Source of the DNA: a virus
Lineage: Duplodnaviria; Heunggongvirae; Uroviricota; Caudoviricetes
Length of the DNA stretch: 39,379 bases
Reading direction: 5' to 3' (one strand)
IMG/VR virus record: IMGVR_UViG_2778261458_000007
The notes below the pieces were generated by a model. It was given only the letters and a program-made list of their open reading frames with translations, had not been told where the DNA came from and made no database searches. Position numbers and translations under genes: made by a program. Positions within the stretch are counted from its first letter, which is position 1; each line of letters opens with the position of its first letter. This document shows positions 10,800 to 36,289 of this stretch, piece after piece.

Positions 10800-10809
10800 G
10801 CATGGTACT

Positions 10810-10826: not shown

Positions 10827-10845
10827 TATTACCACGGTGGTTATG

Positions 10846-13976: not shown

Positions 13977-13993
13977 CTTACCTGAAAGGTAAT
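13977..13993. promoter_or_regulatory. Operator site 10 (head operon / tRNA divergent region): CTTACCTGAAAGGTAAT
   Basis: In noncoding region upstream of head genes and of minus-strand tRNA. Confidence 0.55.
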
Positions 13994-14082
13994 AATTCGT
14001 GCGTTAAATGTCAACTACCTACGATAAATAAATCATATGTGGTTAAATTGGTAATAATTTAATTGCGTACGGAGTCATTGAT

Positions 14083-14289
14083 ATGTGCATGGGTAGCTCA
14101 CCATCAGTGCCTGCAACACCAGAAGTTCAGGCAGCACCACAGGAGCAGGATGCCGCCGTTGTTGATGCCCGCGACGAAGAAACACGTCGCCGTCGCGCTG
14201 CTGCTGGTCGTAGTTCTACGCTGCTTACCGGTTCTCAGGGCGACACATCAACCGCTAATACCAGCGGTAAAACGCTGCTTGGTCAGTAA
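14083..14289 (+). CDS. Small hypothetical protein preceding portal (68 aa)
   Basis: ATG with GGAG RBS; shares 12-nt initiation region CGGAGTCATTGA with portal gene. Confidence 0.4.
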   Translation: MCMGSSPSVPATPEVQAAPQEQDAAVVDARDEETRRRRAAAGRSSTLLTGSQGDTSTANTSGKTLLGQ

Positions 14290-14303
14290 CCGGAGTCATT
14301 GAA

Positions 14304-15983
14304 ATGGCGGAAACAACTAAAGAGCGATTGAACAAACAGTTCGCACAACTTGAAAGCGAGCGTCAGTCGTTTGAGCCGCACTGGCGCGAGTTGAGTGATT
14401 ACATCAACCCGCGTGGTTCCCGCTTTCTGACTTCTGAGGTCAACCGTAACGATCGACGCAATACACGCATTATTGATTCGACCGGGACTATGGCGGCGCG
14501 CACTCTCGCCAGCGGCATGATGTCAGGCATCACAAGCCCCGCGCGTCCGTGGTTTCGCCTGGCTACGCCAGATCCTGAAATGATGGATTATGGCCCTGTT
14601 AAGTTGTGGCTTGAGGCGGTGCAGAACCGCATGAACGATATGTTCAATAAGTCGAATCTCTACCAGTCTCTTCCGCAGTTATACGGAAGCCTCGGCACAT
14701 ACAGCACTGGTGCAATGGCGGTGCTGGAGGATGACGAGGACATAATTCGCACAATGCCATTCCCGATAGGTAGTTACTACCTGGCTAACTCACCTCGTGG
14801 CAGTGTGGACACATGTTTTCGTAAGTTCTCTATGACTGTTCGTCAGCTTGTTCAGGAGTTCGGGCTAAATAACGTCAGCGAATCCGTAAAAAGCATGTGG
14901 GAAAGCGGTACCTACGAGAAGTGGATTGAAGTGATGCATTCGGTTTACCCGAACATTGACCGCGATACATCGAAGCTGGATAGCAAGAACAAGCCATTCA
15001 AATCGGTTTATTACGAGGTTGGTGGCGATAACGACAAGTTGTTGCGTGAGTCCGGATTCGATGAGTTTCCAATTATGGCTCCGCGCTGGGAAGTTAACGG
15101 CGAAGATGTTTATGGATCATCATGCCCGGGTATGCTGGCGCTTGGACCTGTTAAGGCATTGCAGCTTCTCCAGAAGCGCAAGTCGCAGTTGATTGATAAA
15201 GCCACCAATCCGCCGATGGTTGCTCCGACTTCCCTCAAGAATCAGCGCGCCTCCCTTCTTCCTGGCGACATCACGTATATCGATCAGATTACTGGTCAGG
15301 ATGGCTTCAGGCCTGCTTATCTGGTTAACCCCAGTACAGCAGATTTGGTGGCAGACATTCAGGACACTCGTCAAATCATTAACAGCGCCTACTTTGTCGA
15401 TCTGTTCATGATGTTGCAGAACATCAATACCCGCTCGATGCCTGTTGAAGCGGTGATCGAAATGAAAGAAGAAAAACTTCTGATGTTGGGGCCGGTTCTG
15501 GAGCGTCTGAACGACGAATGTCTTAATCCTCTCATTGACCGCGCTTTCTCGATGATGGTGCGTAAAAACATGCTGCCGCCACCGCCTGACGCGATGGAAG
15601 GTATGCCCCTGAAGGTCGAATACATTTCCGTCATGGCTCAGGCGCAGAAGTCTATCGGCCTGTCCAGTCTGGCGTCTACGGTCAACTTCATTGGTCAACT
15701 TGCGCAAGCGAAACCAGAAGCTCTCGACAAACTCAACGTTGATCAGGCGATCGATGCATTCGCTGATATGTCCGGAGTGTCTCCAACCGTCATTGTTCCG
15801 CAGGAACAGGTTGAGCAGGCTCGCCAGCAACGGGCACAGCAACAACAGCAGCAACAAATGATGGAGATGGGGATGGCGGCGGCACAGGGTGCCAAGACGC
15901 TAAGCGAAGCTAAAACTTCGGATCCGAGTGTTTTGTCAGCTATGGCGAATGCAGTTAGTGGTCAGGGTGGGCAATCACAATGA
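14304..15983 (+). CDS. Portal (head-to-tail connector, T7 gp8-like)
   Basis: 559-aa ORF directly after terminase module; Gln-rich C-terminus (QARQQRAQQQQQQQMMEMGMAAAQG) parallels T7-type connector C-terminus. Confidence 0.7.
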   Translation: MAETTKERLNKQFAQLESERQSFEPHWRELSDYINPRGSRFLTSEVNRNDRRNTRIIDSTGTMAARTLASGMMSGITSPARPWFRLATPDPEMMDYGPVKLWLEAVQNRMNDMFNKSNLYQSLPQLYGSLGTYSTGAMAVLEDDEDIIRTMPFPIGSYYLANSPRGSVDTCFRKFSMTVRQLVQEFGLNNVSESVKSMWESGTYEKWIEVMHSVYPNIDRDTSKLDSKNKPFKSVYYEVGGDNDKLLRESGFDEFPIMAPRWEVNGEDVYGSSCPGMLALGPVKALQLLQKRKSQLIDKATNPPMVAPTSLKNQRASLLPGDITYIDQITGQDGFRPAYLVNPSTADLVADIQDTRQIINSAYFVDLFMMLQNINTRSMPVEAVIEMKEEKLLMLGPVLERLNDECLNPLIDRAFSMMVRKNMLPPPPDAMEGMPLKVEYISVMAQAQKSIGLSSLASTVNFIGQLAQAKPEALDKLNVDQAIDAFADMSGVSPTVIVPQEQVEQARQQRAQQQQQQQMMEMGMAAAQGAKTLSEAKTSDPSVLSAMANAVSGQGGQSQ

Positions 15984-16276
15984 CAGATTACGAAGACGAT
16001 CAACTGAAAGAAGAAAACGCCCGTAAGCAACGTGACATGGCACAGCGTGAAATTGATGACATTCGCTTTGTCATGAGCAGTGAACAGGGGCGTCGCGTTG
16101 TCTGGTCTGTGCTGGAGAAAGGCCGGGTGTTTTCCGCTATCTCTCCGATGGATGCTATGGCAATGGCATTTAATGAGGGGCAACGCAATCTGGCGCTGGA
16201 ACTGTTTCAGCGCGTTATGGCGCATTGCCCTGAACAGTATTTGAAGATGGCCAAAGAGGCCAGTGAACAGGAGTGA
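15980..16276 (+). CDS. Hypothetical head-assembly protein (98 aa)
   Basis: Coupled between portal and scaffold genes. Confidence 0.45.
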   Translation: MTDYEDDQLKEENARKQRDMAQREIDDIRFVMSSEQGRRVVWSVLEKGRVFSAISPMDAMAMAFNEGQRNLALELFQRVMAHCPEQYLKMAKEASEQE

Positions 16277-16278
16277 TC

Positions 16279-16974
16279 ATGAATTTATTTGAGCGTTTGC
16301 TGTATCGCCGTCTTTGCAATGAGCAACCAGTCGATGGTGGAGCAGCTCCGGCTGCGTCAGAACCGTCAGCGCCTGCAGGTGATAACCCTGCTCCAGTTGG
16401 TGATCCATCACAACCGGAAGGTGATAAGCCACAACCTGTTGCTGATGGCGATAAACCTGCTGATGACAAAAAGCCTGAAAACGATAAGCAGGATGAAAAA
16501 AAGGACGGCGATAAACCAGAGGGTGCGCCTGAGAAGTACGAGTTTCAGGCTGCCGAAGGCGTAGAGCTGGATACAGAAGCGTTGAAGGAATTCGAGCCGG
16601 TGGCGCGAGAACTTAACCTGACCAACGAGCAAGCGCAAAAGCTGGTTGATGCTTATCCGAAGATTCTGGCAGGTGTTCAGCAGCGCCAGGCAGAAGCCTG
16701 GCAGAAAACAACCGAGCAGTGGGCTGCGGATGTAAAAGCTGACAAAGAAATCGGTGGCGACAAGTTGATTTCTAACCTTAGCGCCGCACAGCGTGCGCTT
16801 GACCAGTTCGGGACACCTGAACTCAAAGAATATCTGAACACCACCGGGCTGGGTAATCACCCTGATCTGGTCAAAACGTTCGTGAAAATCGGAAAGGCGA
16901 TGTCTGAAGATGGCATGGTCACCGGTGGTAATGAAGGCCAGCGTAGTGCGGCCGAAGTGCTCTATGGCAAATAA
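16279..16974 (+). CDS. Putative scaffolding protein
   Basis: Acidic, Pro/Asp/Lys-rich low-complexity N-terminal half then helical region; located between portal and capsid; AGGAG RBS. Confidence 0.5.
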   Translation: MNLFERLLYRRLCNEQPVDGGAAPAASEPSAPAGDNPAPVGDPSQPEGDKPQPVADGDKPADDKKPENDKQDEKKDGDKPEGAPEKYEFQAAEGVELDTEALKEFEPVARELNLTNEQAQKLVDAYPKILAGVQQRQAEAWQKTTEQWAADVKADKEIGGDKLISNLSAAQRALDQFGTPELKEYLNTTGLGNHPDLVKTFVKIGKAMSEDGMVTGGNEGQRSAAEVLYGK

Positions 16975-16988
16975 GAGAGGAAATGACA

Positions 16989-17975
16989 ATGGCTGTTAAA
17001 GGCTTAACTGCGCTAACGCTGGCTGACTGGGGTAAGCGCGTCGATTCAAACGGGAAAGTCGATAAGATTATCGAGCTTCTCGGTCAAACTAACCCGATCC
17101 TTCAGGATATGCCTTTTGTCGAAGGGAACCTTCCTACCGGACACCGAACCACCATTCGTTCTGGTTTACCTTCAGCTACCTGGCGTTTGCTGAACTATGG
17201 CGTACAGCCAAGCAAATCAACCACAGTGCAGGTAACCGATTCCGTTGGCATGCTGGAAACCTATGCGGAAGTCGATAAGTCACTGGCTGATCTGAACGGC
17301 AATACCGCCGAATTCCGCCTGTCTGAAGACCGCGCATTTATTGAAGCGATGAATCAGCAGATGGCGCAGACGCTGTTTTATGGTGATTCCAGCGTTAACC
17401 CTCAGCAGTTTATGGGACTGTCCTCCCGCTATTCCAGCCTGTCTGCGGGTAATGCTCAGAACATCATTGATGCTGGTGGCACGGGTACAGATAACACCTC
17501 AATCTGGTTAGTGGTGTGGGGCGAAAACACCGTGCATGGCATCTTCCCGAAAGGGCAGAAGGCTGGCATCCAGATGGAAGATAAAGGCCAGGTGACACTG
17601 GAAGATGCTAATGGCGGCAAGTACGAAGGCTATCGCACCCATTACAAATGGGATAACGGACTTGCTCTGCGTGACTGGCGTTATGTTGTTCGCATTGCAA
17701 ACATCGATGTCAGCAATCTTTCAGAACCTTCCTCTGCCGCAAATATTGCGAAGTTGATGGTTAAAGCACTGCATCGCATTCCAAACCGTGGCATGGGCCG
17801 CCCGGTGTTCTACATGAACCGCACTGTAGGCCAGGCTCTTGATCTGCAGTCTCTGGAGAAAACATCTCTGGCGATTAGCGTAAAAGAGACTGAAGGCGAG
17901 TGGTGGACGTCATTCCGTGGTGTACCAATCCGTGAAACTGATGCGCTTCTGGAAACAGAAGCCCGCGTGGTGTAA
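16989..17975 (+). CDS. Major capsid protein
   Basis: About 330-aa ORF after scaffold with strong RBS GAGAGG; followed by hairpin and terminator as usual after capsid genes. Confidence 0.7.
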   Translation: MAVKGLTALTLADWGKRVDSNGKVDKIIELLGQTNPILQDMPFVEGNLPTGHRTTIRSGLPSATWRLLNYGVQPSKSTTVQVTDSVGMLETYAEVDKSLADLNGNTAEFRLSEDRAFIEAMNQQMAQTLFYGDSSVNPQQFMGLSSRYSSLSAGNAQNIIDAGGTGTDNTSIWLVVWGENTVHGIFPKGQKAGIQMEDKGQVTLEDANGGKYEGYRTHYKWDNGLALRDWRYVVRIANIDVSNLSEPSSAANIAKLMVKALHRIPNRGMGRPVFYMNRTVGQALDLQSLEKTSLAISVKETEGEWWTSFRGVPIRETDALLETEARVV

Positions 17976-18026
17976 CGCCTGTTATTAACCTGTGGGTCGT
18001 AACAGACCCACTAATGGAGAAAGAAG

Positions 18027-18464
18027 ATGATCACCGACAAACTGTTGATGTTCTCCGAAGCACAGGCGGTAACTGATACCGCGGCTTCTACTGACGTAAT
18101 CGATCTCGGTCCAATTGATGGGATCCGTCGCGATATCGGCGTGGGTTATCCGCTTGAGTTTTGGGCGCTGGTTAACGAAGCCGCCACGGCAAGTGGTGAG
18201 GCAACTGTAAACATCCAGTTGCAGACGAGTGAGAATAACAGCTCATGGTCCACTATTTATGATAGTGGCGCACTGGCAAAGGCCACCCTGACAGCAGGTA
18301 AGCGAGTTGTTTCTGCAAAGGTGCCAGCCGGTGTTCAGCGATATCTGCGTGTTAACTACTCCGTCGCAACTGGCCCACTAACGGCTGGCAAATTCACTGC
18401 TGGTATCAATCTTGATGTTGATGCCAATACGCCGTATCCGATCCGCTCAAAAGTAACTGGTTAA
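18027..18464 (+). CDS. Putative capsid decoration or virion protein
   Basis: 145-aa ORF directly after capsid gene; RBS GGAGAAAG. Confidence 0.45.
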   Translation: MITDKLLMFSEAQAVTDTAASTDVIDLGPIDGIRRDIGVGYPLEFWALVNEAATASGEATVNIQLQTSENNSSWSTIYDSGALAKATLTAGKRVVSAKVPAGVQRYLRVNYSVATGPLTAGKFTAGINLDVDANTPYPIRSKVTG

Positions 18465-18474
18465 GGTGATATTG

Positions 18475-18810
18475 ATGTCAGGTGAGAAACCAAGATACCG
18501 CGTTCTGCGCCTCTCTCATATCCATAACACTCTGTGGCCGGAGGGGGCAGAAATCGAATACGAAGGTGAGCCTGGTAGCGCACTGGAACCTGTTAACGAT
18601 GCAGCCAGACAGGCAAAAGCAAAAGTTGCAGGAAAGGTGTCAATGGCAGCAACCAGCACCAAAATCATCAACGATGTGTCAGATGATGGTGAACTGGATA
18701 AGCTCCGTGAAGAGTACGAATTGCTCTTTAACGAGAGGCCACACCATAACGCCAAAGCAGAAACGCTCCGCGAGAAGATCGCAGATAAGCGTAAAGAACT
18801 GGGCGTGTAA
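18475..18810 (+). CDS. Hypothetical protein
   Basis: ATG 18475 with AAGGTGA upstream; followed by intrinsic terminator. Confidence 0.4.
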   Translation: MSGEKPRYRVLRLSHIHNTLWPEGAEIEYEGEPGSALEPVNDAARQAKAKVAGKVSMAATSTKIINDVSDDGELDKLREEYELLFNERPHHNAKAETLREKIADKRKELGV

Positions 18811-18826
18811 GCCTCGCGAATCAGAC

Positions 18827-18850
18827 AAGGGGCTTCGGCCCCTTTATTGC
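18827..18850 (+). terminator. Intrinsic terminator within structural region
   Basis: Hairpin AAGGGGC-TTCG-GCCCCTT followed by TATT. Confidence 0.6.
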
Positions 18851-18860
18851 AGGAGTGTAT

Positions 18861-19184
18861 ATGGAACTCGTAAACCTCAAAACCGGCACTGACAGCTACC
18901 AGGATGAGAGCGGAGAAACCAGAACTCGCGATGAATACCCGTGGGGGCTGTGCATCACGCTGAATAACGACACATTGAATAAGCTGAAGGCGCAACCTCA
19001 GGGCGTCGGAACAGAAGTGATGATAACTGCGAAGGCTGTTATTCGAGGCCTGTCTGCCAGAGAAACTGACGATGGTGTTAATCGCAGCGCCGATCTGCAG
19101 ATCACTGATATGGCAATCGCTCCTGTTTCCGGTGATGTAGAAAAATCAGCGGCTGAAACCCTCTACGGTAACGGGGGTGAGTGA
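18861..19184 (+). CDS. Hypothetical virion-associated protein
   Basis: ATG 18861 with AGGAG upstream. Confidence 0.4.
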   Translation: MELVNLKTGTDSYQDESGETRTRDEYPWGLCITLNNDTLNKLKAQPQGVGTEVMITAKAVIRGLSARETDDGVNRSADLQITDMAIAPVSGDVEKSAAETLYGNGGE

Positions 19185-19789
19185 TGGCCTCTGTAGTAGA
19201 GATCTGTAATCGTGCGCTGTCCAATATTGGCAACAGCCGCAGCATTAACAGCCTGACGGAAGCCAGCAAGGAAGCGGGGGAATGTTCGCTGCATTTTGAG
19301 GCCTGTCGTGATGCTGTGCTTTCTGATTTTGACTGGAACTTTGCTACAAAACGCGTGGCGCTTGCAGATACGAGCAATCCACCGCCTGACTGGGAATATG
19401 CGTACCAGTACCCTTCCGATTGTCTGCGCATTACTGAAATTATGCTTCCTGGTGTACGCAATCCAACAGCAGCAATGCGTGTTCAGTACGAAGTTGGTGC
19501 AGACACCAACGGAACAGGAAAATTGATCTACACAGACCAGCCGCAGGCATGGCTTAAGTATGTCTCTCGCGTTACAGATGTGAACATGTTTGATGCCATT
19601 TTTATGGAGGCGCTGGCCTGGCGTCTTGCGGCAGCTATTAACATGGCGCTGACTGGGAATGCAGACCTCGGTACGTTTGCCCTCAATATGTACAATCGCG
19701 TGATTCTTAGTGCTGGCTCGCATAGCCAGAATGAATCACAGGAACCACAGCCACCGGTTGATGAGTTTACCATTGCGAGGTTGTCCTGA
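19184..19789 (+). CDS. Tail tubular protein A-like (adaptor)
   Basis: N-terminal pattern and size resemble T7 gp11-type proteins; directly precedes large nozzle-like gene. Confidence 0.5.
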   Translation: MASVVEICNRALSNIGNSRSINSLTEASKEAGECSLHFEACRDAVLSDFDWNFATKRVALADTSNPPPDWEYAYQYPSDCLRITEIMLPGVRNPTAAMRVQYEVGADTNGTGKLIYTDQPQAWLKYVSRVTDVNMFDAIFMEALAWRLAAAINMALTGNADLGTFALNMYNRVILSAGSHSQNESQEPQPPVDEFTIARLS

Positions 19790-22260: not shown

Positions 22261-22724
22261 TGATAGACGTTCAAATTATTCCCGCTACCGAAGAGCATCT
22301 TCAGATGATTTTGCCGGATGTTCGTCAAGCTGATATTGACGAACTGTATGCGGTATCACTGATGACTACCGAAGATGCGCTGCGTGTTGGTCTTCGCACT
22401 GCGACTATGGCCTGGTCAGGGTTCGCGAACGGAGAACTGGTAACCATGTTTGGTGTATCTCCGGCGTCAATGATCGGTGGCAATGGTACGCCCTGGCTGG
22501 TAGGAACCAGCCGTATTGAAAAATATCAGAAGACATTTCTTCGCCACTGCCGCCCTGTATTGCAGCAGATGCTGGCAGTTTATCCGCGCCTGGAAAACTA
22601 CGTCGACGAGCGAAACCATGTTGCCAAAGCATGGCTGCACTGGCTTGGATTCAGGCTTGAAGAAGCCGCGCCTTATGGTGCTCTTGGTCTTAATTTCCAC
22701 AGATTTCACATGGAGAGAAAATAA
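22260..22724 (+). CDS. Hypothetical internal virion protein
   Basis: 154-aa ORF coupled to nozzle gene stop. Confidence 0.4.
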   Translation: MIDVQIIPATEEHLQMILPDVRQADIDELYAVSLMTTEDALRVGLRTATMAWSGFANGELVTMFGVSPASMIGGNGTPWLVGTSRIEKYQKTFLRHCRPVLQQMLAVYPRLENYVDERNHVAKAWLHWLGFRLEEAAPYGALGLNFHRFHMERK

Positions 22725-23263
22725 TGTGTAACCCAGCCATCGCTTTGGTTGCCGTCACAGTGGCATCCACAGCCGCGTCAATGTACAGCCAGAGCAAGCA
22801 GGCAAAATACCAGTCAGCCATAGCTGATCGGAATGCTGAAATTGCTGAAGCTCAGGCACAGGATTCAATCAATCGTGGGAATATTGAAGCGGATCAGCGT
22901 CGTCGTGAAATGCGTCAACGCTCAGGTACTGCGGCGGCCACTATGGGTGCTACCGGTGCGGAATTAAGTAGCGGAACAGCTCTTGACGTTTTTGCGGATA
23001 ATGCTCAGTTCGGCACTCTTGATGCGTTAACGACAGTGAATAATGCTCAGCGTGAGGCATATGGGTATCAGGTTCAGGGAATGAATGCTCAGGCACAGGG
23101 GGCTGCTGCTCAGTCGGCTGCTAAATCATCGATGACCAGCACTTTGTTAACGGCACCACTAAAAGCATACGGTGCATACCAGATGGGCGGCGGAACGTGG
23201 AGCCCGTTCTCTCAGAAGGCTGCGCCGATTTCTGCTGCTGTTGGCACTCCAACCGGTCGATAA
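22724..23263 (+). CDS. Internal virion protein with N-terminal hydrophobic segment
   Basis: 179-aa ORF, Ala/Gln-rich, N-terminal hydrophobic stretch; position equivalent to T7 gp14. Confidence 0.4.
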   Translation: MCNPAIALVAVTVASTAASMYSQSKQAKYQSAIADRNAEIAEAQAQDSINRGNIEADQRRREMRQRSGTAAATMGATGAELSSGTALDVFADNAQFGTLDALTTVNNAQREAYGYQVQGMNAQAQGAAAQSAAKSSMTSTLLTAPLKAYGAYQMGGGTWSPFSQKAAPISAAVGTPTGR

Positions 23264-23275
23264 GGGGATAATAAG

Positions 23276-27588: not shown

Positions 27589-27593
27589 ATTAA

Positions 27594-30068
27594 ATGAGAC
27601 AGGAATGTATACAAGCGGTTCAGCAGGCGGCGCAGCGCATGTTAACGGCGCGAGAAATACAGAACATTGAAGACCGCATTTATCGAAATATGCGCTCCAT
27701 TGCTCGTGATGACCCGATGTCGTGGCGACAACTTTCCGAATCAGAGCGGCTATATCGAGCAGCACAATTGGCATCTGAAGAATTACAGCGAGAAGCGGCA
27801 TTAAAGAAACGTCGTGTGGCTCTCACTATAGCCGCGCGTCAGAGATTGGATAAATTTATCAATAGCTATCAAGGGGCTGATGGGAAACTTGGCGCTCTTA
27901 ACCGTACTATAGCTTTTAATGCAGACGGTAAATCTAATTTCCTCTCTGTTGAATCCAGAACAAAAGCCACTCGTGATTATGCATTGAGTCAATTGCAGGA
28001 GGCATTCGAAGCAGTTGATCCTCGCTTTTTTGGCCTGTTTGAAGATGAAGCGGGCGTGCGTGACCTGGTATATGAAATGCGAGGGCAAAATACTGGCAAT
28101 GCTAAAGCAAGAAAAGGTGCTAAGGCGTGGAGAGAAGTGACAGAGCTACTGCGCCGCCGGTTTAATGATGCTGGTGGGGACATTGGCTATCTCGAAAACT
28201 GGGGGATCCCTCAACATCATTCTATGGAAAAGGTTGGGGCGGTATCAAAAGATAAATGGGTTAGCGATGTTATAGGTAAGCTGGATCGCAAATATTATAC
28301 CCGAGCCGATGGACAACTGATGAACGATGTCGAGTTGTCTGCATTTCTTGGAGAGGCTTATAACACGATCGCTACTGGTGGGCTGAATAAGCTTACTGAT
28401 ACCGGAATGCGAATTTCCGGCGCACGTGCTAACCGTGGTAATGCATCACGACAGATACATTTCAAAGATGCAGATTCCTATCTGCAATATCAGCAACTTT
28501 ATGGCGATCGCTCTCTATGGGAAATCATGGTCGGTCACCTGGAAGGGATCAGTAAAGATATTGCTTTGGTGGAAACATATGGTCCAAACCCCGATCATGT
28601 TTTCCGTTCCCTTCTTGATCAGGTGAAGGCAGAAACGGCAACAGCTAACCCGAGTAAAACCGGTAGCGTCGAGCGGCTGGCGAACAAAACAGAGAACCTG
28701 TACAACTTTATTTCCGGAAAGACACAGCCTGTTGCGAATCCTCACATCGCGCGCTGGTCTGACAATATCAGAAACTGGCTGGTTGCCAGCAGGCTCGGAT
28801 CCGCGTTGCTGTCATCGTTCTCTGATCTTGGAACCATGTATCTGTCTGCGAAGGTTACCAACCTTCCAATGAACCAGTTATTCCGCAACCAGCTTGAAGC
28901 TATGGACCCAACGAACCGTACTGAGCTTGCGCGGGCGCGCCGCGCTGGTCTGGCGATGGAATCTCTACTTGGCAGCGTTAACCGCTGGGCGATGGATAAT
29001 ATGGGGCCGTCTGTGTCTCGTTGGGCTGCAACGGCGGTAATGCGTGCCAGTGGGCTTACAGCATGGTCAGATGCGCACAAGCGCGCTTATGGCGTAACCA
29101 TGATGGGAAGCCTGGGTGAAGTAGTGTCACGGACACCAGACCTTCGTAGCCTCGATGACTCTGATTTTCGTATCCTGAAAAGCAAAGGGATTACTGACAC
29201 AGACTGGAGCGTATGGAAGCTGGCGCAACAGGAGGACTGGGGGAACGGTAATAATACGATGCTGACACCGGAAAGCATTATGCGTATCCCTGATTCAGCA
29301 GTTAAACATCTTGGTGAGCCTGAACGTGTGAAATTTGAGGCAATGCGTAAACTGCTCGGTGCCGTAACTGAAGAAGTTGATATGGCTGTTATTACACCGG
29401 GCGCACGTGAACAGATGTTCGTAGGGTCTGGTCTTCAGCGTGGAACATGGAAAGGTGAATTAACGAGAAGTGTTTTCCTGTTTAAATCGTTCCCTATCTC
29501 GGTAGTTATGCGTCACTGGCATAGAGCTATGGGGATGCCGTCTGCTGGTGGGCGTGCGGCATATATAGCAACGTTTTTAGCAAGCACAACCATGCTTGGT
29601 GCTCTTTCCATGCAGATTACTGATCTTATTAATGGGAGAAATCCAAAAGAAATGACCGGTGACAACATGGTTAAATTCTGGATAAATGCATTTTTAAAAG
29701 GTGGTGGGGCAGGGTTGTATGGTGATTTTCTTTTCTCTGACCACACCAGGTACGGGAGCGGCGCACTAGCGTCGATGCTTGGCCCGGTAGCTGGTCTGGT
29801 TGATGACGTAGTGAAGATTGCTCAGGGCATACCATTAAATGCTGTGGAAGGGAAGAATGAGCAGACTGGTGGTGATCTGGTTAAGCTTGGGAAAGGTTTG
29901 ATGCCTGGTGCGAATCTCTGGTACTTGAAGGCGGCTCTCGATCACATGATCTTTAACCAGATGCAGGAGTATTTTTCACCAGGTTATTTGCGTAAAATGG
30001 AGCAACGTTCGAAGAAAGAGTTTAACCAGACATACTGGTGGCGACCTCAGGATGTCACTCCGCAATAA
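27594..30068 (+). CDS. Internal virion / DNA-ejection protein (824 aa)
   Basis: Large ORF with hydrophobic segments near C-terminus; T7 gp16-equivalent position. Confidence 0.45.
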   Translation: MRQECIQAVQQAAQRMLTAREIQNIEDRIYRNMRSIARDDPMSWRQLSESERLYRAAQLASEELQREAALKKRRVALTIAARQRLDKFINSYQGADGKLGALNRTIAFNADGKSNFLSVESRTKATRDYALSQLQEAFEAVDPRFFGLFEDEAGVRDLVYEMRGQNTGNAKARKGAKAWREVTELLRRRFNDAGGDIGYLENWGIPQHHSMEKVGAVSKDKWVSDVIGKLDRKYYTRADGQLMNDVELSAFLGEAYNTIATGGLNKLTDTGMRISGARANRGNASRQIHFKDADSYLQYQQLYGDRSLWEIMVGHLEGISKDIALVETYGPNPDHVFRSLLDQVKAETATANPSKTGSVERLANKTENLYNFISGKTQPVANPHIARWSDNIRNWLVASRLGSALLSSFSDLGTMYLSAKVTNLPMNQLFRNQLEAMDPTNRTELARARRAGLAMESLLGSVNRWAMDNMGPSVSRWAATAVMRASGLTAWSDAHKRAYGVTMMGSLGEVVSRTPDLRSLDDSDFRILKSKGITDTDWSVWKLAQQEDWGNGNNTMLTPESIMRIPDSAVKHLGEPERVKFEAMRKLLGAVTEEVDMAVITPGAREQMFVGSGLQRGTWKGELTRSVFLFKSFPISVVMRHWHRAMGMPSAGGRAAYIATFLASTTMLGALSMQITDLINGRNPKEMTGDNMVKFWINAFLKGGGAGLYGDFLFSDHTRYGSGALASMLGPVAGLVDDVVKIAQGIPLNAVEGKNEQTGGDLVKLGKGLMPGANLWYLKAALDHMIFNQMQEYFSPGYLRKMEQRSKKEFNQTYWWRPQDVTPQ

Positions 30069-30077
30069 GGAACAACA

Positions 30078-30491
30078 ATGAAGGAATTATTGCTGTTATC
30101 GGTATTTTTGATATCCGCTTGCTCGACATCCTATGATGTTTATGACGGTGTTGATAAGGCATATTGCGACAAAGTTAAAATGGATTTTTCTCTTGCCAAG
30201 ACGGCGAAGGATAGTTGTATTGATCACTACGTCAAGACTTATACCAAGCCAGCCTCATCGGCATCTGATATTGCTGAAGGTGCTGTGTTTGAGTGTAACA
30301 AGGTGATATCCATCGCAGCGAGTTCTTCATACGATGCTGCTGTATGTGCAATGGCTGAAAGAAACGGCATGTCAGTGCAAAAAATTAATAGCATGATAAG
30401 CAGTAATGACGAAGCCAAAATAAGAACTGATATCAGCTCGGTGAAAAAAGATGCCATGAACAGAGTTGTAAAATATCAGTCATCTTTATAA
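30078..30491 (+). CDS. Lipoprotein (137 aa), last gene of late operon
   Basis: Signal peptide with lipobox LISAC; RBS AAGGAA; GC visibly lower than structural genes; followed by palindrome and terminator. Confidence 0.55.
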   Translation: MKELLLLSVFLISACSTSYDVYDGVDKAYCDKVKMDFSLAKTAKDSCIDHYVKTYTKPASSASDIAEGAVFECNKVISIAASSSYDAAVCAMAERNGMSVQKINSMISSNDEAKIRTDISSVKKDAMNRVVKYQSSL

Positions 30492-30494
30492 GTC

Positions 30495-30506
30495 GTGACA
30501 TGTCAC
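30495..30506. repeat. Palindrome GTGACATGTCAC (copy 3)
   Basis: Perfect 12-bp palindrome between lipoprotein stop and late-operon terminator. Confidence 0.6.
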
Positions 30507-30507
30507 A

Positions 30508-30531
30508 GGCCGCTTTCGCGGCCTTGTTTTT
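30508..30531 (+). terminator. Intrinsic terminator ending the late structural operon
   Basis: Hairpin GGCCGC-TTTC-GCGGCC followed by TTGTTTTT. Confidence 0.65.
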
Positions 30532-30608
30532 AACGAATGCCACCGCCACCCGGGCGGGAATCCGCAGAACGCCCACCGCTGCGGGAGCCGTCAGCAGCAG
30601 TATCGCTG

Positions 30609-31112
30609 TTATACTATTGAGTTTAATGATATCTTGTCCTTAATATCATTAAGTTTGCCATATATCTTTTTTGCATAAAAATCAGCATCCTCAATAAACC
30701 TCGACTTCTCATTATCAGGCATATTTTTGAAGGTATGTGCACATGTATATTGAGAGTAGTATTTGTGAAATTCTTGATACGCATTATTGAGTTCTTGTAA
30801 GTCTTTTTTATACTCAGGAAGGTATATGTTTATTAGCATTTCCATCGTTTGCAACGGATTCGCTCTTGATACGTCAAATTTACTATCAGAGTGGTATCTG
30901 GCATTTTTTACGAAATTGAGAATGGTAATTGTGCTTGAATCTATGACTTTTTTAGTAAGTATACAATTTATAAATAATTGCTCGCATTTATCCCTTAATA
31001 TTTTTTGTCGCTCTAATCTTATGCTGTTTTTGTATCCTTGTCTTGCATTTATATAAGTGGAAACTATAGCAATAACTGCACCTATCAATGCGCCTAAGAT
31101 AGTATTATCCAT
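30609..31112 (-). CDS. Membrane-anchored protein of unknown function
   Basis: Start ATG 31112 with AGGTGG upstream; one N-terminal TM segment (ILGALIGAVIAIVSTYI); AT-rich coding sequence. Confidence 0.5.
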   Translation of the reverse strand: MDNTILGALIGAVIAIVSTYINARQGYKNSIRLERQKILRDKCEQLFINCILTKKVIDSSTITILNFVKNARYHSDSKFDVSRANPLQTMEMLINIYLPEYKKDLQELNNAYQEFHKYYSQYTCAHTFKNMPDNEKSRFIEDADFYAKKIYGKLNDIKDKISLNSIV

Positions 31113-31137
31113 ATAAGCCACCTAAACTGCGTAAAAT

Positions 31138-32001
31138 TTATTTCCTGCCACTTCTGTAGTATATGTTGCGACCATTTTTGGTCACATTAACAACATGACC
31201 CTTTGTTTCTACTTTGTTATTTGTTGCCTTATATACTTCAAAGTCAAACCATGATATATGACTTATTTCGTCTATAGATACCATAATTTCTAGACCTTGA
31301 ACTTTCTTTTTGCTTATCCCTTTTATCGCAGCACTGCGCTTAATTTGGATTTCACCTGGGTAAGCGTTTGTAAATGTAACAGATAAATTTTCTTTGTTTC
31401 TGTACCCTGACATTAAAGGAACAAAAGATATGTGTTGGTGTGGCCCTTGATTTTCCGTTGGCTCACCAGAACCATTTATTATTCCAACGTATACTTTATT
31501 TGATGATAAAGTAATTAACATTGGTTTCTTAGGATCTGATTCGATTGCATCAAGCAATAGCAAATCTAAAGAACCCTGGGAGTACGTTTTTCGCAATACC
31601 CTAGCTTTCATTGCCTCTGATATTTTGTCATAAATATCACGTTTATAAAAACAACCTAAAAGAAGATCTTTTAGCCAAACAAAAGATACATAACACAAAG
31701 AGAAGCAAATTGATGTGACTGACAGAAGAAGTAGCCACATGTAAATTCTATCTGTTTCTGGTTTTGACGTTACATTAAAAGTTTCCACCATATCGTGAAC
31801 TAGGTGAAAATCAGGATATTTATATTTTATAAATGAGGCAATTATTACCGAAGCAACAAGGCAATATGTACCTAATGCAGCTACTTTCATATAAAGAAGC
31901 TGGCCTTCATGTCGGTATAAACGGAAATAATGATACTGGTTAGCGGTTATCATAATATAACCACTAACCAGAATGGGGATAATTAGAAGAGCTAACAACA
32001 C
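31138..32001 (-). CDS. Membrane protein of unknown function (three N-terminal TM segments plus soluble domain)
   Basis: 287-aa ORF; GTG start overlapping stop of upstream 69-aa gene, RBS AAGGA; hydrophobic stretches at roughly residues 1-20, 40-60, 85-105; AT-rich. Confidence 0.5.
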   Translation of the reverse strand: MLLALLIIPILVSGYIMITANQYHYFRLYRHEGQLLYMKVAALGTYCLVASVIIASFIKYKYPDFHLVHDMVETFNVTSKPETDRIYMWLLLLSVTSICFSLCYVSFVWLKDLLLGCFYKRDIYDKISEAMKARVLRKTYSQGSLDLLLLDAIESDPKKPMLITLSSNKVYVGIINGSGEPTENQGPHQHISFVPLMSGYRNKENLSVTFTNAYPGEIQIKRSAAIKGISKKKVQGLEIMVSIDEISHISWFDFEVYKATNNKVETKGHVVNVTKNGRNIYYRSGRK

Positions 32002-32210
32002 TATTTCCTTACAGTGGCAAGATCCTGTTTAACGATTGCAGCAGCGAGACGACGCATCTCCTTAACCTCAGGAAGCTCAGAAATTTGCTGTGATGAGATA
32101 TACACTCCACCACGCTTGTTAACCTGCGCTGACGCCGGAACTTCTGCATTTTTTGCCTGAGGGCTGGGTGCATTATCCCTCGTTTTTGTACGAGCGAACC
32201 AAAATCCCAT
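32001..32210 (-). CDS. Small basic protein (69 aa), first gene of accessory operon
   Basis: Strong RBS AGGAGGAGAT; directly downstream of operator-overlapped promoter. Confidence 0.45.
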   Translation of the reverse strand: MGFWFARTKTRDNAPSPQAKNAEVPASAQVNKRGGVYISSQQISELPEVKEMRRLAAAIVKQDLATVRK

Positions 32211-32235
32211 ATCTCCTCCTCATGTAAACACATGG

Positions 32236-32252
32236 TTTACCTTTAAGGTAAT
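32236..32252. promoter_or_regulatory. Operator site 11 (accessory operon promoter): TTTACCTTTAAGGTAAT
   Basis: Overlaps -10 and +1 of leftward promoter TTGCAG-17-TACTAT. Confidence 0.55.
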
Positions 32253-32279
32253 AGTACGCTATTCACCCCCGGTCTGCAA
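32251..32279 (-). promoter_or_regulatory. Promoter of accessory membrane-protein operon
   Basis: On minus strand -35 TTGCAG (32279-32274), 17-bp spacer, -10 TACTAT (32256-32251) overlapping operator site 11. Confidence 0.45.
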
Positions 32280-32290
32280 TCTGTACAGAA

Positions 32291-32315
32291 TTATTTAAAG
32301 GCACATCCCTGTGCC
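32291..32315 (-). terminator. Hairpin terminator after Bro-N gene
   Basis: Hairpin GGCACA-GGGA-TGTGCC followed on minus strand by TTTAAATAA. Confidence 0.45.
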
Positions 32316-32323
32316 GCCGCCCG

Positions 32324-33034
32324 TCAGAAGAACCCTGCCTTGTCGTTGATGTACTCCGCGTGTGTCTGGATATCACGCAGGCATTTGCTCACACCGACGA
32401 TGTAGCAGAACATGGTGGTCAGCTCCGCCGCTGCGCCCGATACGTCGTGCCCGTCGTCCTGTAACTGGTTCAGCAGATTCATCAGCAGTGAGTTCTCTGT
32501 CAGGCCGAGAACACCAGACGGCGAATGAATCAGGCTGCGGTAGCCGGGCTTCAGTGGGGCGCTGTAGGTTTTGTTCTCTACCTTCATTGCCTGCATCACT
32601 GCTGACGCCGTGGCGTTGGCTACCTGGTCGGCAACCATCTTTATGCGTTCTTCCTGCGGGAGCGAGTTTTTAATGTAGCGTCCGGTGCGGCGGATCTGAG
32701 GAAGAACCTCACCTGTAACCCATTTACGAAAGCGGTAGGGTATAGTGCCTGGTGTCACTGCGTCGCGGCAGCGTAGGATCAGTGTGTAGAGGCCTGACTC
32801 GGAGATGATGTTGATCTCTTTTACTCGGCTGTCAAAAATTGCACGATGTTCATGCCCTATGTTGAACATAGACCTTTCATCATCATCCAGTTTTTCAAGT
32901 GCTTGGGTGACGTTTTGGATACGCAGCGCACTACAAACGTCTTGGGCTACAAACCATGGTTGGCCATCGATAATGATGGAACGGATAGGGTTAACAGATT
33001 CAAATTTGAAGATGGCAGTTTGAGCATTAGCCAT
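32324..33034 (-). CDS. Bro-N domain antirepressor-like protein
   Basis: N-terminal region FVAQDVCSALRIQN...ISESGLYTLILRCRD...FRKWVTGEVLPQIRRTG matches Bro-N-type antirepressors; start ATG 33034 with GGAG upstream. Confidence 0.65.
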   Translation of the reverse strand: MANAQTAIFKFESVNPIRSIIIDGQPWFVAQDVCSALRIQNVTQALEKLDDDERSMFNIGHEHRAIFDSRVKEINIISESGLYTLILRCRDAVTPGTIPYRFRKWVTGEVLPQIRRTGRYIKNSLPQEERIKMVADQVANATASAVMQAMKVENKTYSAPLKPGYRSLIHSPSGVLGLTENSLLMNLLNQLQDDGHDVSGAAAELTTMFCYIVGVSKCLRDIQTHAEYINDKAGFF

Positions 33035-33190
33035 GGTGGTTATCTCCACTTAGTGATTTTAATCACCACCGCAACGCCAATTACTGGTGGTGAACTGGAC
33101 AAGGTTGGCGTACCGGCCTAAGTGGTACCGGCGTCCTTTCGGACCCCTGCCCAGCCCACCATAATTCGGATATAGCTGTGCTTAACGCAT

Positions 33191-33213
33191 AAAAAAACCA
33201 CGTCTGGCGTGGT
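33191..33213 (-). terminator. Intrinsic terminator inside leader upstream of Bro-N gene
   Basis: Hairpin ACCACG-CCAGA-CGTGGT followed on minus strand by T-run. Confidence 0.55.
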
Positions 33214-33302
33214 ATGCGCCACTTAGTAACCCGGGACGCCAATCCCGGCACTGGATTTTGCCAGTGCCTGATTACTATGGCACAAGAGGAGTGCGATGTA
33301 AA

Positions 33303-33319
33303 TTTACCTCAAAGGTAAA
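33303..33319. promoter_or_regulatory. Operator site 12 (antirepressor leader promoter): TTTACCTCAAAGGTAAA
   Basis: Overlaps -10 of leftward promoter TTGCAA-17-TATATT. Confidence 0.55.
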
Positions 33320-33346
33320 TATAAGCACTCCACTTGGTAATTGCAA
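33318..33346 (-). promoter_or_regulatory. Promoter of structured leader/sRNA upstream of Bro-N gene
   Basis: On minus strand -35 TTGCAA (33346-33341), 17-bp spacer, -10 TATATT (33323-33318) overlapping operator site 12. Confidence 0.45.
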
Positions 33347-33349
33347 ACC

Positions 33350-33607
33350 TTATCTGGTTTGTTTTCGTAATTGTTCGGCACAATAGTCGAGATGTGTTTG
33401 CAGCTCCTGCATAGACATCTGTGAGCTGGTGACGTAGTTAATCAGTGCAGTCAGTTCGGCAAGTGGGCCATCGACATTAAATCCATCCTTATCGAGATCC
33501 CGGAGTAATTTCATCAAGTGCGATCCCTCCACCAGTGATCTGACGCCTCCCGGCGTGTGAATCCTTTCGGTAAATCCGTCTTCCAGTGGATAGTGATACT
33601 GCTGCAT
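33350..33607 (-). CDS. Small antirepressor-like protein (homolog of Bro-N protein C-terminal domain), LexA-box associated
   Basis: About 45 percent identity by eye to residues about 150-215 of the Bro-N protein (shared LAELT, QTH..Y); start at second ATG 33607 with GGAG RBS; LexA box 23 bp upstream. Confidence 0.5.
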   Translation of the reverse strand: MQQYHYPLEDGFTERIHTPGGVRSLVEGSHLMKLLRDLDKDGFNVDGPLAELTALINYVTSSQMSMQELQTHLDYCAEQLRKQTR

Positions 33608-33629
33608 CTTAATCTTCTCCATGCAATAA

Positions 33630-33645
33630 CTGTATATTTATACAG
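33630..33645. promoter_or_regulatory. LexA (SOS) box CTGTATATTTATACAG
   Basis: CTGT-N8-ACAG with AT-rich centre; extended match AACTGTATATTTATACAGTA to consensus TACTGTATATATATACAGTA; 23 bp upstream of small antirepressor-like gene. Confidence 0.75.
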
Positions 33646-33683
33646 TAGCAAATAATTTGTTTGCTATCCAGCACGTTTTGCAA

Positions 33684-33700
33684 ATTACCTGAAAGGTAAT
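33684..33700. promoter_or_regulatory. Operator site 13: ATTACCTGAAAGGTAAT (perfect palindrome)
   Basis: In divergent region between LexA-boxed small gene and tailspike gene; preceded by TTGCAA. Confidence 0.6.
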
Positions 33701-33803
33701 ATCTATTCATATTCACAGTCTTTCTATCCATATGTGGTTTTTCAGGTAATAGAATAACCAGATATGCGGCGCAACGGGTGCTGCGACTATCTGGAGATTT
33801 AAC

Positions 33804-36077: not shown

Positions 36078-36289
36078 TGGTATCGCTGAAATTCGTTTCC
36101 AGTCATGTAAAGTTGAATGCTAAGAAATGTTGGTTTCATGAACAATCATCCGCTGAGTATCTATTATGCGATTTATTAATCGCAATGATACGCAATCACA
36201 ATAAATGGTAACGATTATTCATAAATGGTTTGTTGTGTATAATGACTCTCATCTTTCAGCCGAGGCATCATGCACAACAAACGGTGTTT

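What the first reader, a model, noticed from the sequence alone, without database searches (positions are those of the whole stretch)
14034..33751. Shared bipartite element CATATGTGGTT-N5-GGTAAT upstream of the head operon and the tailspike gene
Two late genes are preceded by the same 22-bp arrangement: CATATGTGGTT AAATT GGTAATAA (14034-14057, before head genes) and CATATGTGGTT TTTCA GGTAATAG (33729-33751, before tailspike). It pairs the operator right half-site GGTAAT with a different left element GTGGTT at identical 5-bp spacing. A related TTATGTGGTT occurs at 8178-8187 next to operator site 8, and GTGGTT again at 10837-10842 just before terS. Neither late promoter has a good -35 hexamer. 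This could be a site for a late-gene activator, or a hybrid site letting repressor and activator compete.
Basis: seen in the sequence. Interest (0 to 1): 0.55.

Follow-up and report, generated by a model that had tools for sequence, protein, structure and literature searches.

The report
Shared late-promoter core of a phiV10-like prophage

Summary
CATATGTGGTT-N5-GGTAAT occurs exactly twice (14034-14055, 33729-33750), with none expected by chance. The window is a phiV10-like Uetakevirus prophage.

In 16-17 divergent relatives (Salmonella, Klebsiella, Enterobacter, Citrobacter, Kluyvera, Buttiauxella and others) the same element sits at the same place upstream of the gp3/portal operon and of the tailspike gene. 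A third copy lies upstream of the lysis cassette: 36217-36243, ATTCATAAATGGTT-N7-TATAAT. A box-only matrix trained on relatives' head and tailspike sites ranks this lysis site first in the whole window.

All three share a box, (A/T)(T/C)CATAT(R)(W)GGTT. Its C lies 18 bp upstream of a -10-like hexamer: TAATAA, TAATAG or TATAAT. No usable -35 is present. The GGTAAT is therefore mainly "G + -10". The lysis copies lack it.

My best reading is an activator-dependent late-promoter class. The activator is unidentified; candidates are a PerC-family protein and a 113-aa Cys-rich protein.

The "hybrid repressor site" idea stays possible for the head and tailspike copies. A full operator lies at a conserved distance upstream: 62 bp at the head, the same spacing as the early operator pairs.

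The motifs at 8178 and 10837 are different arrangements. This is a new member of a known kind, of moderate interest.

The parts
14031..14057 (+). Head-operon late promoter core. Box AATCATATGTGGTT is at 14031-14044, spacer AAATTGG at 14045-14051, and the -10-like TAATAA at 14052-14057. TGG at 14049-14051 gives an extended -10. The predicted start is near 14064.
   Evidence: The element is nearly invariant in 11 distinct orthologous sequences from several genera and in 80 E. coli-type loci.
33726..33755 (+). Tailspike late promoter core. Box ATCCATATGTGGTT is at 33726-33739, spacer at 33740-33746, and the -10-like TAATAG at 33747-33752. An alternative -10, TAGAAT, is at 33750-33755. The predicted start is near 33759.
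   Evidence: The consensus in relatives is aTtCATAta.GgtTT..tgGGTAATAgAAT.
36217..36243 (+). Third copy, the lysis-cassette late promoter. Box ATTCATAAATGGTT is at 36217-36230, spacer at 36231-36237, and a perfect -10 TATAAT at 36238-36243. The lysis gene ATG is at 36290.
   Evidence: This site is the top genome-wide hit of a box matrix trained only on relatives' head and tailspike sites. Orthologous copies occur in epsilon15, Citrobacter, Enterobacter, Kluyvera, Buttiauxella and Klebsiella loci.
13977..13993 (.). Full repressor operator CTTACCTGAAAGGTAAT. It starts 62 bp upstream of the pseudo-operator GTGGTT-N5-GGTAAT (14039-14055). It also overlaps the -10 (TACCTT, 13986-13991, minus strand) of a conserved leftward promoter whose -35 TTGACA is at 14009-14014 (minus strand).
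   Evidence: The epsilon15 record annotates the orthologous site as a repressor binding site.
33684..33700 (.). Full repressor operator ATTACCTGAAAGGTAAT. It starts 50 bp upstream of GTGGTT-N5-GGTAAT (33734-33750), and 28 nt separate it from CATAT in all relatives. It lies between the ant promoter region and the tailspike promoter.
8165..8208 (+). Middle promoter carrying the 'related' TTATGTGGTT (8178-8187) in its spacer. The -35 TTGATT is at 8165-8170, the -10 TTTAAT at 8188-8193 and the operator at 8192-8208. This is a different register from the late promoters.
   Evidence: The same layout is seen in epsilon15, Kp4865-1, BUCT711 and BUCT554.
10803..10844 (+). terS promoter region. An extended -10, TGG-TACTAT, is at 10803-10811. 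Tandem operators are at 10810-10826 and 10828-10844, and the second contains the GTGGTT at 10837-10842. There is no box here.
   Evidence: TGnTA[CGT]TAT is conserved in five relatives.
2089..2388 (-). Candidate activator 1, a 99-aa PerC-family protein in the leftward early operon.
   Evidence: Pfam PerC, E = 7e-7. It is conserved in all complete relatives. Homologues occur in 36 phage records, of which all 30 listed carry names seen among the Uetakevirus-type records that also hold the promoter region. This evidence is correlative only.
10197..10538 (+). Candidate activator 2, a 113-aa basic protein with a C-terminal Cys cluster. It is the second-to-last gene of the rightward early operon, upstream of terS.
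   Evidence: It hits PHROG 536, 'transcriptional regulator', with E = 3e-54. Against this candidate, a 67%-identical homologue in Pectobacterium phage ZF40 coexists with a Q-like gene, and ZF40 has no box above background. The structure model was low confidence.

Best explanation
The element is the core of a phage-specific class of late promoters.

Three rightward late transcription units start with the same architecture: gp3-portal-head-tail (about 14.06-30.5 kb), the tailspike gene, and the lysis cassette. The architecture is a 14-bp box (A/T)(T/C)CATAT(R)(W)GGTT at about -33 to -20, then 7 bp ending in G(-13), then a -10-like hexamer TAATAA / TAATAG / TATAAT. No -35 hexamer sits at a usable distance.

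Inference: host sigma70 RNA polymerase recognises the -10, helped in the head copy by TGn. A phage-encoded factor bound to the box substitutes for the missing -35 contact, so these operons stay silent until that factor is made. The factor is not identified. The candidates are the PerC-family protein (2089-2388, minus strand) and the 113-aa Cys-rich protein (10197-10538).

In this reading the GGTAAT of the head and tailspike copies is primarily G(-14)G(-13) plus the first four bases of the -10. Its identity with the operator half-site, together with a full operator at a fixed distance upstream, may additionally let the tetrameric repressor clamp these two promoters in the lysogen.

What is shown: existence, position, conservation, the third copy, and the lack of a -35. 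What is inferred: transcription start points, the need for an activator, the activator's identity, and repressor contact.
For: - Exact repeat, none expected by chance.
- The same element occurs at the same place upstream of the orthologous genes in relatives that are only about 66-80% identical in the flanks.
- Across 80 + 81 close relatives (52 and 38 haplotypes among those alignable), polymorphism piles up in the operator centre and the operator-promoter spacer. It spares the box and the -10, apart from the R position and the 3 nt before GGTAAT.
- Third copy upstream of the lysis cassette in the window and in 6 relatives, with an identical 18-nt offset from the box C to the -10 T.
- The box matrix was trained without window or lysis sites. 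It scores the window lysis site 20.9, the best of about 78,700 positions. The best hit in 200 Markov-simulated genomes had mean 13.1, 99th percentile 19.2, and none reached the observed score.
- A loose regular expression finds exactly these three sites in the window and three in epsilon15.
- The sigma70 consensus scan finds no + strand promoter at the head and tailspike sites. At the lysis locus its only + strand hit (36139-36167) lies about 50 bp upstream of the box. The same scan does find the early promoters: leftward TTGACA-17-AATTAT and rightward TTGTTA-17-TATTAT.
- The predicted starts leave sensible leaders with Shine-Dalgarno sequences.
Against: - There are no transcription start or expression data for any member of this phage group in the records or papers I could reach.
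- The tailspike copy can also be read as an ordinary sigma70 promoter: TTCATA in relatives (TCCATA in the window), 17 bp, TAGAAT.
- The head copy has an extended -10 (TGG-TAATAA) that might work alone.
- The lysis copy in the window has a perfect TATAAT.
- The terS operon uses a different, box-less extended -10 promoter under direct operator control, so late genes here do not all need the box.
- The right half of the box is degenerate in the most distant relatives (Kluyvera and Buttiauxella tailspike and lysis copies).
- No activator is identified. The positional candidate has a close homologue in a phage without the box.
Confidence: 0.6

Rival explanations
1. Hybrid or auxiliary repressor operator. 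GTGGTT-N5-GGTAAT is a weak second operator holding one good half-site. One repressor tetramer bridges it to the strong operator upstream, which shuts the late promoter whose -10 it covers. This could hold in addition to the promoter reading.
For: - GGTAAT is invariant in the head and tailspike copies of all relatives, which is more than a -10 alone requires.
- A full operator lies at a strictly conserved distance upstream in each class: 40 nt (head), 28 nt (tailspike) and 31 nt (lysis) between the operator end and CATAT.
- At the head locus the operator start and the pseudo-operator start are 62 bp apart. This matches the true operator pairs 5025/5087 and 8130/8192, and epsilon15 32554/32616.
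- The SPC32H repressor binds DNA as a tetramer, as summarised in PMC9638917.
Against: - The left half matches ATTACC at only 1 of 6 positions.
- The lysis copies keep the box and the -10 but have no GGTAAT.
- In the window, the lysis promoter lacks a full upstream operator.
- The spacings of 62, 50 and 53 bp are not all in helical phase.
- The upstream operators have other obvious jobs. One overlaps a conserved leftward promoter TTGACA-17-TACCTT that faces the tRNA-Arg gene. Another lies next to the ant promoter with its LexA box.
Confidence: 0.35
2. These are ordinary host sigma70 promoters, similar because they share ancestry or a preferred promoter context. No dedicated factor exists. Timing is set only by the repressor and by gene dosage.
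For: - The tailspike copy in relatives reads TTCATA-17-TAGAAT, which is 4/6 + 5/6.
- The head copy has TGn + TAATAA.
- The lysis copy has TATAAT or TATGAT.
- terS shows that direct repressor control of a late operon exists in this phage.
Against: - No single sigma70 reading fits all three copies. With the -10 that fits the lysis copy, TTCATA is only 14 bp away. With the 17-bp reading, the lysis copy has no -10.
- The GGTT block in the spacer is conserved, although sigma70 makes no base-specific spacer contacts there.
- The consensus scan finds none of the three sites.
- An unrepressed, factor-independent lysis promoter would be hazardous in the window's lysogen, which has no full operator there.
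Confidence: 0.25
3. Loading site for a Q- or AlpA-type processive antiterminator. The element would be a binding site between -35 and -10, combined with a sigma-dependent pause and downstream terminators.
For: - The box lies between the -35 and -10 positions, as QBE and ABE elements do (PMC9371919).
- -10-like hexamers follow the -10 in the head copy (TTTAAT) and the tailspike copy (TAGAAT).
Against: - There is no functional -35/-10 pair for constitutive initiation.
- No terminator lies between the promoters and the first genes. The only convincing + strand terminator is at the end of the operon, at 30507-30524.
- No Q-like gene was found.
- The -10-like repeats lie upstream of the predicted start, not in the transcribed region.
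Confidence: 0.05

Closest known systems
Phage P1 late promoters with Lpa (gp10) and host SspA. This rests on my own knowledge of Lehnherr et al. 1991-92 and Hansen et al. 2003; I did not check it here.
   Same: Several dispersed late operons each carry a sigma70 -10 hexamer and no -35. A conserved short sequence in the spacer region, around -22, is required together with a small phage activator.
   Different: The box sequence and its position differ: here it spans about -33 to -20, and it is at most weakly palindromic. No Lpa homologue was detected. An upstream repressor operator accompanies each promoter here.
T4 middle promoters (MotA box at -30 plus a sigma70 -10; MotA/AsiA sigma appropriation). 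My own knowledge.
   Same: A box centred near -30 replaces the -35 element, while the -10 is host-like.
   Different: No MotA or AsiA homologues were found. This is a temperate phage, and the box sequence is unrelated.
Mu C-dependent and P2/186 Ogr/B-dependent late promoters. My own knowledge; the Mu C context is covered by PMC12867686, listed.
   Same: The late promoters have poor -35 elements and are activated by one small phage protein at several operons.
   Different: Those sites are dyads located further upstream (-30 to -55, or -55). The candidate proteins here are unrelated.
Repressor operators annotated in epsilon15 (AY150271.2), ATTACC-N5-GGTAAT.
   Same: The right six bases of the element equal the operator right half-site. 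Annotated operators lie just upstream of the same two genes.
   Different: The left half is not an operator half-site. The element itself is not annotated in epsilon15 or in any other record I examined.
Lambda PR' qut, and the PalpB ABE of Pseudomonas AlpA (PMC9371919).
   Same: A factor-binding element is embedded between the -35 and -10 positions of a late or lysis promoter.
   Different: Those promoters have a working -35/-10 pair, a sigma-dependent pause element in the transcribed region and a terminator downstream. None of these was seen here.

Membership tests
Canonical sigma70 promoter | A -35 hexamer (at least 4/6 to TTGACA) lies 16-18 bp upstream of a -10 hexamer that has A2 and T6. 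| tested here: not met
   The consensus scan found no + strand site at the head and tailspike loci. At the lysis locus its only + strand hit (36139-36167) lies about 50 bp upstream of the box. By hand, the window tailspike copy is TCCATA-17-TAGAAT (3/6 + 5/6). The head copy is ATCATA-17-TAATTT (3/6 + 3/6). The lysis copy has no -35 at 16-18 bp from TATAAT.
Canonical sigma70 promoter | A -10 hexamer of the form TAnnnT or close to it. | tested here: met
   TAATAA is at 14052-14057, TAATAG at 33747-33752 (or TAGAAT at 33750-33755), and TATAAT at 36238-36243. All are conserved in relatives.
Extended -10 promoter | TGn lies immediately upstream of the -10 hexamer. | tested here: inconclusive
   The head copy meets it (TGG-TAATAA, invariant in relatives). 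The tailspike copy does not (AGG in the window, GGG in relatives). The lysis copy does not (GTG). For contrast, the terS promoter meets it in all relatives.
Uetakevirus repressor operator (ATTACC-N5-GGTAAT) | Two inverted half-sites are separated by 5 bp. | tested here: not met
   The right half is a perfect GGTAAT in the head and tailspike copies. The left half, GTGGTT, matches ATTACC at 1 of 6 positions. The lysis copies have neither half.
Uetakevirus repressor operator (ATTACC-N5-GGTAAT) | Bound by the phage repressor. | not testable with these tools
   This needs EMSA, footprinting or ChIP. The primary SPC32H papers were not available.
Activator-dependent phage late promoter (P1 Lpa, T4 MotA or Mu C type) | The same non-sigma70 box sits at a fixed distance from a -10, in front of several late operons, and a -35 is absent. 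| tested here: met
   Three operons carry it, with an 18-nt offset from the box C to the -10 T. It is conserved across genera, and the third site was detected out of sample.
Activator-dependent phage late promoter (P1 Lpa, T4 MotA or Mu C type) | A cognate phage activator binds the box, and transcription occurs late and depends on it. | not testable with these tools
   Only candidates can be named: the PerC-family protein and the PHROG 536 protein.
Q/AlpA-type antitermination site | A constitutive promoter, a sigma-dependent pause element in the initial transcribed region, and a downstream terminator. | tested here: not met
   There is no -35. No terminator lies between promoter and gene. No Q-like protein was found.

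The most novel reading that the evidence does not exclude
Uetakeviruses (epsilon15, phiV10, SPN1S/SPC32H and relatives) use a so far undescribed late-transcription switch. A small phage protein, with the PerC-family protein as the best phyletic match, binds the box (A/T)(T/C)CATATRWGGTT at -33 to -20 of three -35-less promoters. At the head and tailspike promoters the lysogenic repressor tetramer, anchored on a full operator 50-62 bp upstream, reaches the GGTAAT that doubles as the -10. Repressor and activator would then compete directly at late promoters.
Probability: 0.3. Interest if true: 0.6.

Novelty: new member of a known kind. Interest (0 to 1): 0.42.

Why it matters
Late-gene control is uncharacterised for the epsilon15/phiV10 group. 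These phages are used as O157 and Salmonella reporter phages and are common prophages of E. coli, Salmonella and Klebsiella.

A defined three-site late-promoter consensus gives concrete targets for promoter-reporter tests and for placing reporter genes. It also gives a handle for finding the late activator. If the PerC-family protein turns out to be that activator, the finding would assign a native phage function to a family known mainly from virulence regulation in EPEC and EHEC.

The operator-plus-promoter layout also suggests that in this group the lysogenic repressor polices every transcription unit directly, and not only the early promoters.

Tried and rejected
- Chance repeat: rejected.
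- ATGTGGTT or ATRTGGTT as a stand-alone genome-wide motif. In the window all 6 copies are intergenic. In epsilon15 and the Klebsiella phages most copies are in coding sequence, and the count is not clearly above chance. I dropped it.
- Palindrome reading AACCA-N4-TGGTT. Matches at up to 2 mismatches are enriched (40 against 18.6 expected), and the palindrome is perfect in some lysis copies and at 6205-6218. But the left half is the variable part in the head copies and reads ATTCA in the tailspike copies. I keep it only as a weak idea.
- Box in the spacer of the leftward early promoter (5046-5059). It is present in the window and in BUCT554 but absent in epsilon15, so it is not a conserved feature.
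- By-eye comparison with sigma54, CRP, DnaA, IHF, ArgR and OmpR consensus sequences found no convincing match. This rests on my own knowledge of those consensus sequences.
- The 113-aa protein as activator. Pfam, NCBIfam and PDB sequence searches were empty. All homologues are named hypothetical. The AlphaFold model had pLDDT 58, so I ran no fold search. A ZF40 homologue exists without the box.
- Known RNA family at the sites: none.
- Literature on late transcription in this phage group: nothing found. The epsilon15 genome paper and both SPC32H papers are not held.
- The genome-contig scan with the 837-aa protein gave only 6 loci. The viral-contig scans returned only near-identical relatives. 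Those were useful for the polymorphism profile but not for diversity.


Full report
**Identity of the window**

The head-locus region is 99.2% identical to Escherichia phage phiV10, and the window is related to epsilon15, SPN1S/SPC32H, Tyrion, BUCT554 and several Klebsiella phages. The window is therefore a phiV10-like Uetakevirus prophage.

The gene order is:
- integrase
- leftward early operon
- repressor (5160-5744, minus strand)
- cro-like gene and rightward early operon
- terS/terL
- a short leftward insert with tRNA-Arg
- gp3, portal, head, tail and ejection genes (14083 to about 30500)
- a leftward accessory block that includes ant
- tailspike (33804-36077)
- lysis cassette (36290-38090)

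**The observation**

Both 22-bp strings are present exactly as described. The pattern with up to two mismatches occurs only there, and none of 100 dinucleotide-preserving shuffles produced any match. The operator family ATTACC-N5-GGTAAT is also real: 13 matches against 1.0 expected. The epsilon15 GenBank record annotates the orthologous operators as repressor sites in the same two intergenic regions, but it does not annotate the element itself and lists no promoter features.

**Conservation**

I extracted the regions upstream of the gp3 and tailspike orthologues from several sources:
- GenBank phages: epsilon15, SPN1S, PAT1, Tyrion, BUCT554, BUCT711, Kp4865-1 and two Klebsiella prophage-derived phages.
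- Prophages found in Citrobacter (two species), Kluyvera, Scandinavium, Buttiauxella and Superficieibacter.
- 160 near-identical IMG/VR loci.

The head copy is almost invariant across genera. Its consensus is AAATAA.tCaTATgTGGTTAAATTGGTAATAATTTAAt. The tailspike consensus is aTtCATAta.GgtTT..tgGGTAATAgAAT.

Within the E. coli-type population the alignable loci give 52 head and 38 tailspike haplotypes. Substitutions cluster in the centre of the operator and in the stretch between operator and element. The element varies only at the G/A after CATAT and in the three bases before GGTAAT. This is a clear footprint of selection.

**A third copy**

Upstream of the lysis cassette the window has ATTCATAAATGGTT TGTTGTG TATAAT at 36217-36243. 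Relatives carry the following:

| Locus | Sequence |
|---|---|
| epsilon15 | TTCCATATGTGGTT TATTGTG TATGAT |
| Citrobacter locus | AACCATATATGGTT TATTGTG TATGAT |
| BUCT554 | ATCCACATATGGTT TATTGTG TATGAT |

In all three promoter classes the C of CATA is 18 nt upstream of the first T of a -10-like hexamer.

I built a 14-column matrix only from relatives' head and tailspike boxes, with no window and no lysis sequences. It scores the window lysis site 20.9, the best position in the window on either strand. The head site scores 20.3 and the tailspike site 19.5. In 200 first-order Markov genomes the best score had mean 13.1 and 99th percentile 19.2, and none reached the observed value. A loose regular expression for box + N6 + GTA finds exactly these three sites in the window and three in epsilon15.

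**What the parts are**

Aligning the three classes shows the common features: CATA, TGGTT, a G at -13, and TA..A of the hexamer. The lysis copies do not have GGTAAT.

No -35 hexamer lies 16-18 bp from these -10s. The consensus scanner reports no + strand promoter at the head and tailspike sites. At the lysis locus its only + strand hit (36139-36167) lies about 50 bp upstream of the box. The same scanner does find the leftward early promoter (TTGACA-17-AATTAT, 5068-5040) and the rightward one (TTGTTA-17-TATTAT, 5845-5873).

An alternative reading of the tailspike copy is possible: TTCATA in relatives (TCCATA in the window), 17 bp, TAGAAT. It cannot be extended to the lysis copies.

The simplest single model for all three is a -35-less promoter in which the box is contacted by something other than sigma region 4, that is, an activator-dependent late promoter. 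That last step is inference.

**Relation to the repressor**

Each late promoter is preceded by a full operator at a distance that is constant within each class: 40 nt (head), 28 nt (tailspike) and 31 nt (lysis) from the operator end to CATAT. The window's own lysis promoter is the exception, with only a GGTAAC half-site.

At the head locus the operator and the pseudo-operator GTGGTT-N5-GGTAAT start 62 bp apart. This is the same spacing as the true operator pairs 5025/5087 and 8130/8192, and as epsilon15 32554/32616. The related SPC32H repressor is reported to bind DNA as a tetramer (PMC9638917). So a tetramer bridging a strong site and a half-site that covers the late -10 is plausible for the head copy and possibly for the tailspike copy.

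Several points weigh against making this the main explanation:
- The lysis copies lack GGTAAT.
- The left half is not operator-like.
- The 50- and 53-bp spacings are not in phase with 62 bp.
- The upstream operators have other plausible targets. One overlaps a conserved leftward promoter whose -35 TTGACA is at 14014-14009 and whose -10 TACCTT lies inside the operator; this promoter faces tRNA-Arg at 13578-13654. The other sits beside the ant promoter region, with a LexA box at 33630-33645.

TTATGTGGTT at 8178-8187 is the 3' end of the spacer of a canonical promoter: TTGATT-17-TTTAAT, with operator 8192-8208 over the start. This layout, including TRTGGTT, is conserved in four relatives, but the motif sits 7 nt closer to the -10 than in the late promoters.

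GTGGTT at 10837-10842 is the degenerate right half of the second of two tandem operators in front of terS. The terS promoter is a conserved extended -10 (TGG-TACTAT in the window, TGnTA[CGT]TAT in relatives) without the box.

Neither motif is the same arrangement as the late element.

**Who binds the box?**

The non-structural proteins conserved in all four complete genomes I compared are:
- integrase
- adenine methylase
- a PerC-family protein (99 aa, Pfam E = 7e-7)
- an AlpA-family protein (82 aa, probably Xis-like)
- a 104-aa protein
- repressor
- cro-like protein
- a gp40-like protein
- a 113-aa basic protein with a C-terminal Cys cluster (PHROG 536, "transcriptional regulator")
- Ant

The 113-aa protein occupies the position of a late regulator, at the end of the rightward early operon. 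However, homologues occur in 154 phage records, including N15, phiKO2, Vibrio and Yersinia phages and Pectobacterium phage ZF40 at 67% identity. ZF40 also has a Q-like gene, and its best box score (14.4) is within the null range.

The PerC-family protein is found in 36 phage records. All 30 listed carry names seen among the Uetakevirus-type records that also hold the promoter region. It is therefore the better phyletic match, but many other genus-specific genes share that pattern.

The structure model of the 113-aa protein was too poor to use (pLDDT 58). No assignment is justified; both proteins are leads only.

**Rivals and verdict**

The Q/AlpA-type reading is unlikely. There is no constitutive promoter, no early terminator and no Q-like gene. 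Plain sigma70 promoters without a dedicated factor remain a serious rival at about 0.25. The hybrid-operator idea is a possible add-on at about 0.35. The activator-dependent late-promoter reading is my best explanation at about 0.6 for "late-promoter core with a functional box". Confidence in the specific activators is lower.

Compared with known systems it works most like P1 Lpa-dependent late promoters or T4 MotA-dependent middle promoters. This comparison rests on my own knowledge. The element shares neither sequence nor proteins with those systems. Nothing in the annotated records or the searchable literature describes it. The epsilon15 genome paper and the two SPC32H papers could not be read, so prior description there cannot be excluded.

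I rate it a new member of a known kind, of moderate interest.

Noticed in passing
window 33083-33267 (- strand), with 32324-33049 (-) and 33303-33319: Rfam gathering-level hits to IsrK (33191-33267) and C4 antisense RNA (33083-33166) lie directly upstream of a Bro-N antirepressor-like gene. Leftward sigma70-like promoters overlapped by operator 33303-33319 precede them. This looks like a P1 immI-like c4/ant module sitting next to the SPC32H-type ant gene.
   Followed up: partly
window 33630-33645: A perfect LexA box, CTGTATATTTATACAG, lies 8 nt upstream of the ant-like gene (33350-33622, minus strand). This fits SOS control of the antirepressor as known for SPC32H (the SPC32H background is my own knowledge).
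   Followed up: no
window 10775-10844: The terS promoter is a conserved extended -10 (TGG-TACTAT, 10803-10811). It sits immediately after an intrinsic terminator and is overlapped by two tandem operators. So the packaging genes appear to be under direct repressor control.
   Followed up: partly
window 13986-14014 (- strand) and 13578-13654 (-): A conserved leftward promoter, TTGACA-17-TACCTT, has its -10 inside operator 13977-13993. It points at tRNA-Arg(TCT) and at a gene of the N4 gp49 / Sf6 gp66 family (13002-13379).
   Followed up: partly
window 33758-33794: The tailspike 5' leader folds into a stable hairpin (-20.9 kcal/mol, z = -4.1) whose outer stem pairs with the Shine-Dalgarno region. 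In relatives RNAalifold recovered only the inner GCGC/GCGC stem.
   Followed up: partly
window 6205-6218: A perfect palindrome AACCAAATATGGTT, followed by a T-run, lies just after the cro-like gene, its terminator and operator 6184-6200. It is conserved in epsilon15 (33749), Kp4865-1 (7657) and BUCT554 (L174:11501). Its function is unknown, and it resembles the late-promoter box.
   Followed up: partly
window 6750-6902: Four to five 24-bp iteron-like direct repeats (GAATGATCCCAAAAACGGGATGTT) lie inside the replication gene 6496-7311. This is probably the origin.
   Followed up: no
window 5160-5744 (-): The repressor is only 42-44% identical to those of epsilon15 and the Klebsiella phages, although the operator consensus is the same in all of them. 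Pfam finds its clear HTH_3 match in the C-terminal half, at residues 106-147.
   Followed up: no
window 36270-36293: A mini-ORF, MHNKRCL*, has its own Shine-Dalgarno sequence in the lysis leader, and its stop overlaps the start of the first lysis gene (ATGA). The leader is highly conserved in relatives, and epsilon15 annotates an RNase III site there.
   Followed up: no
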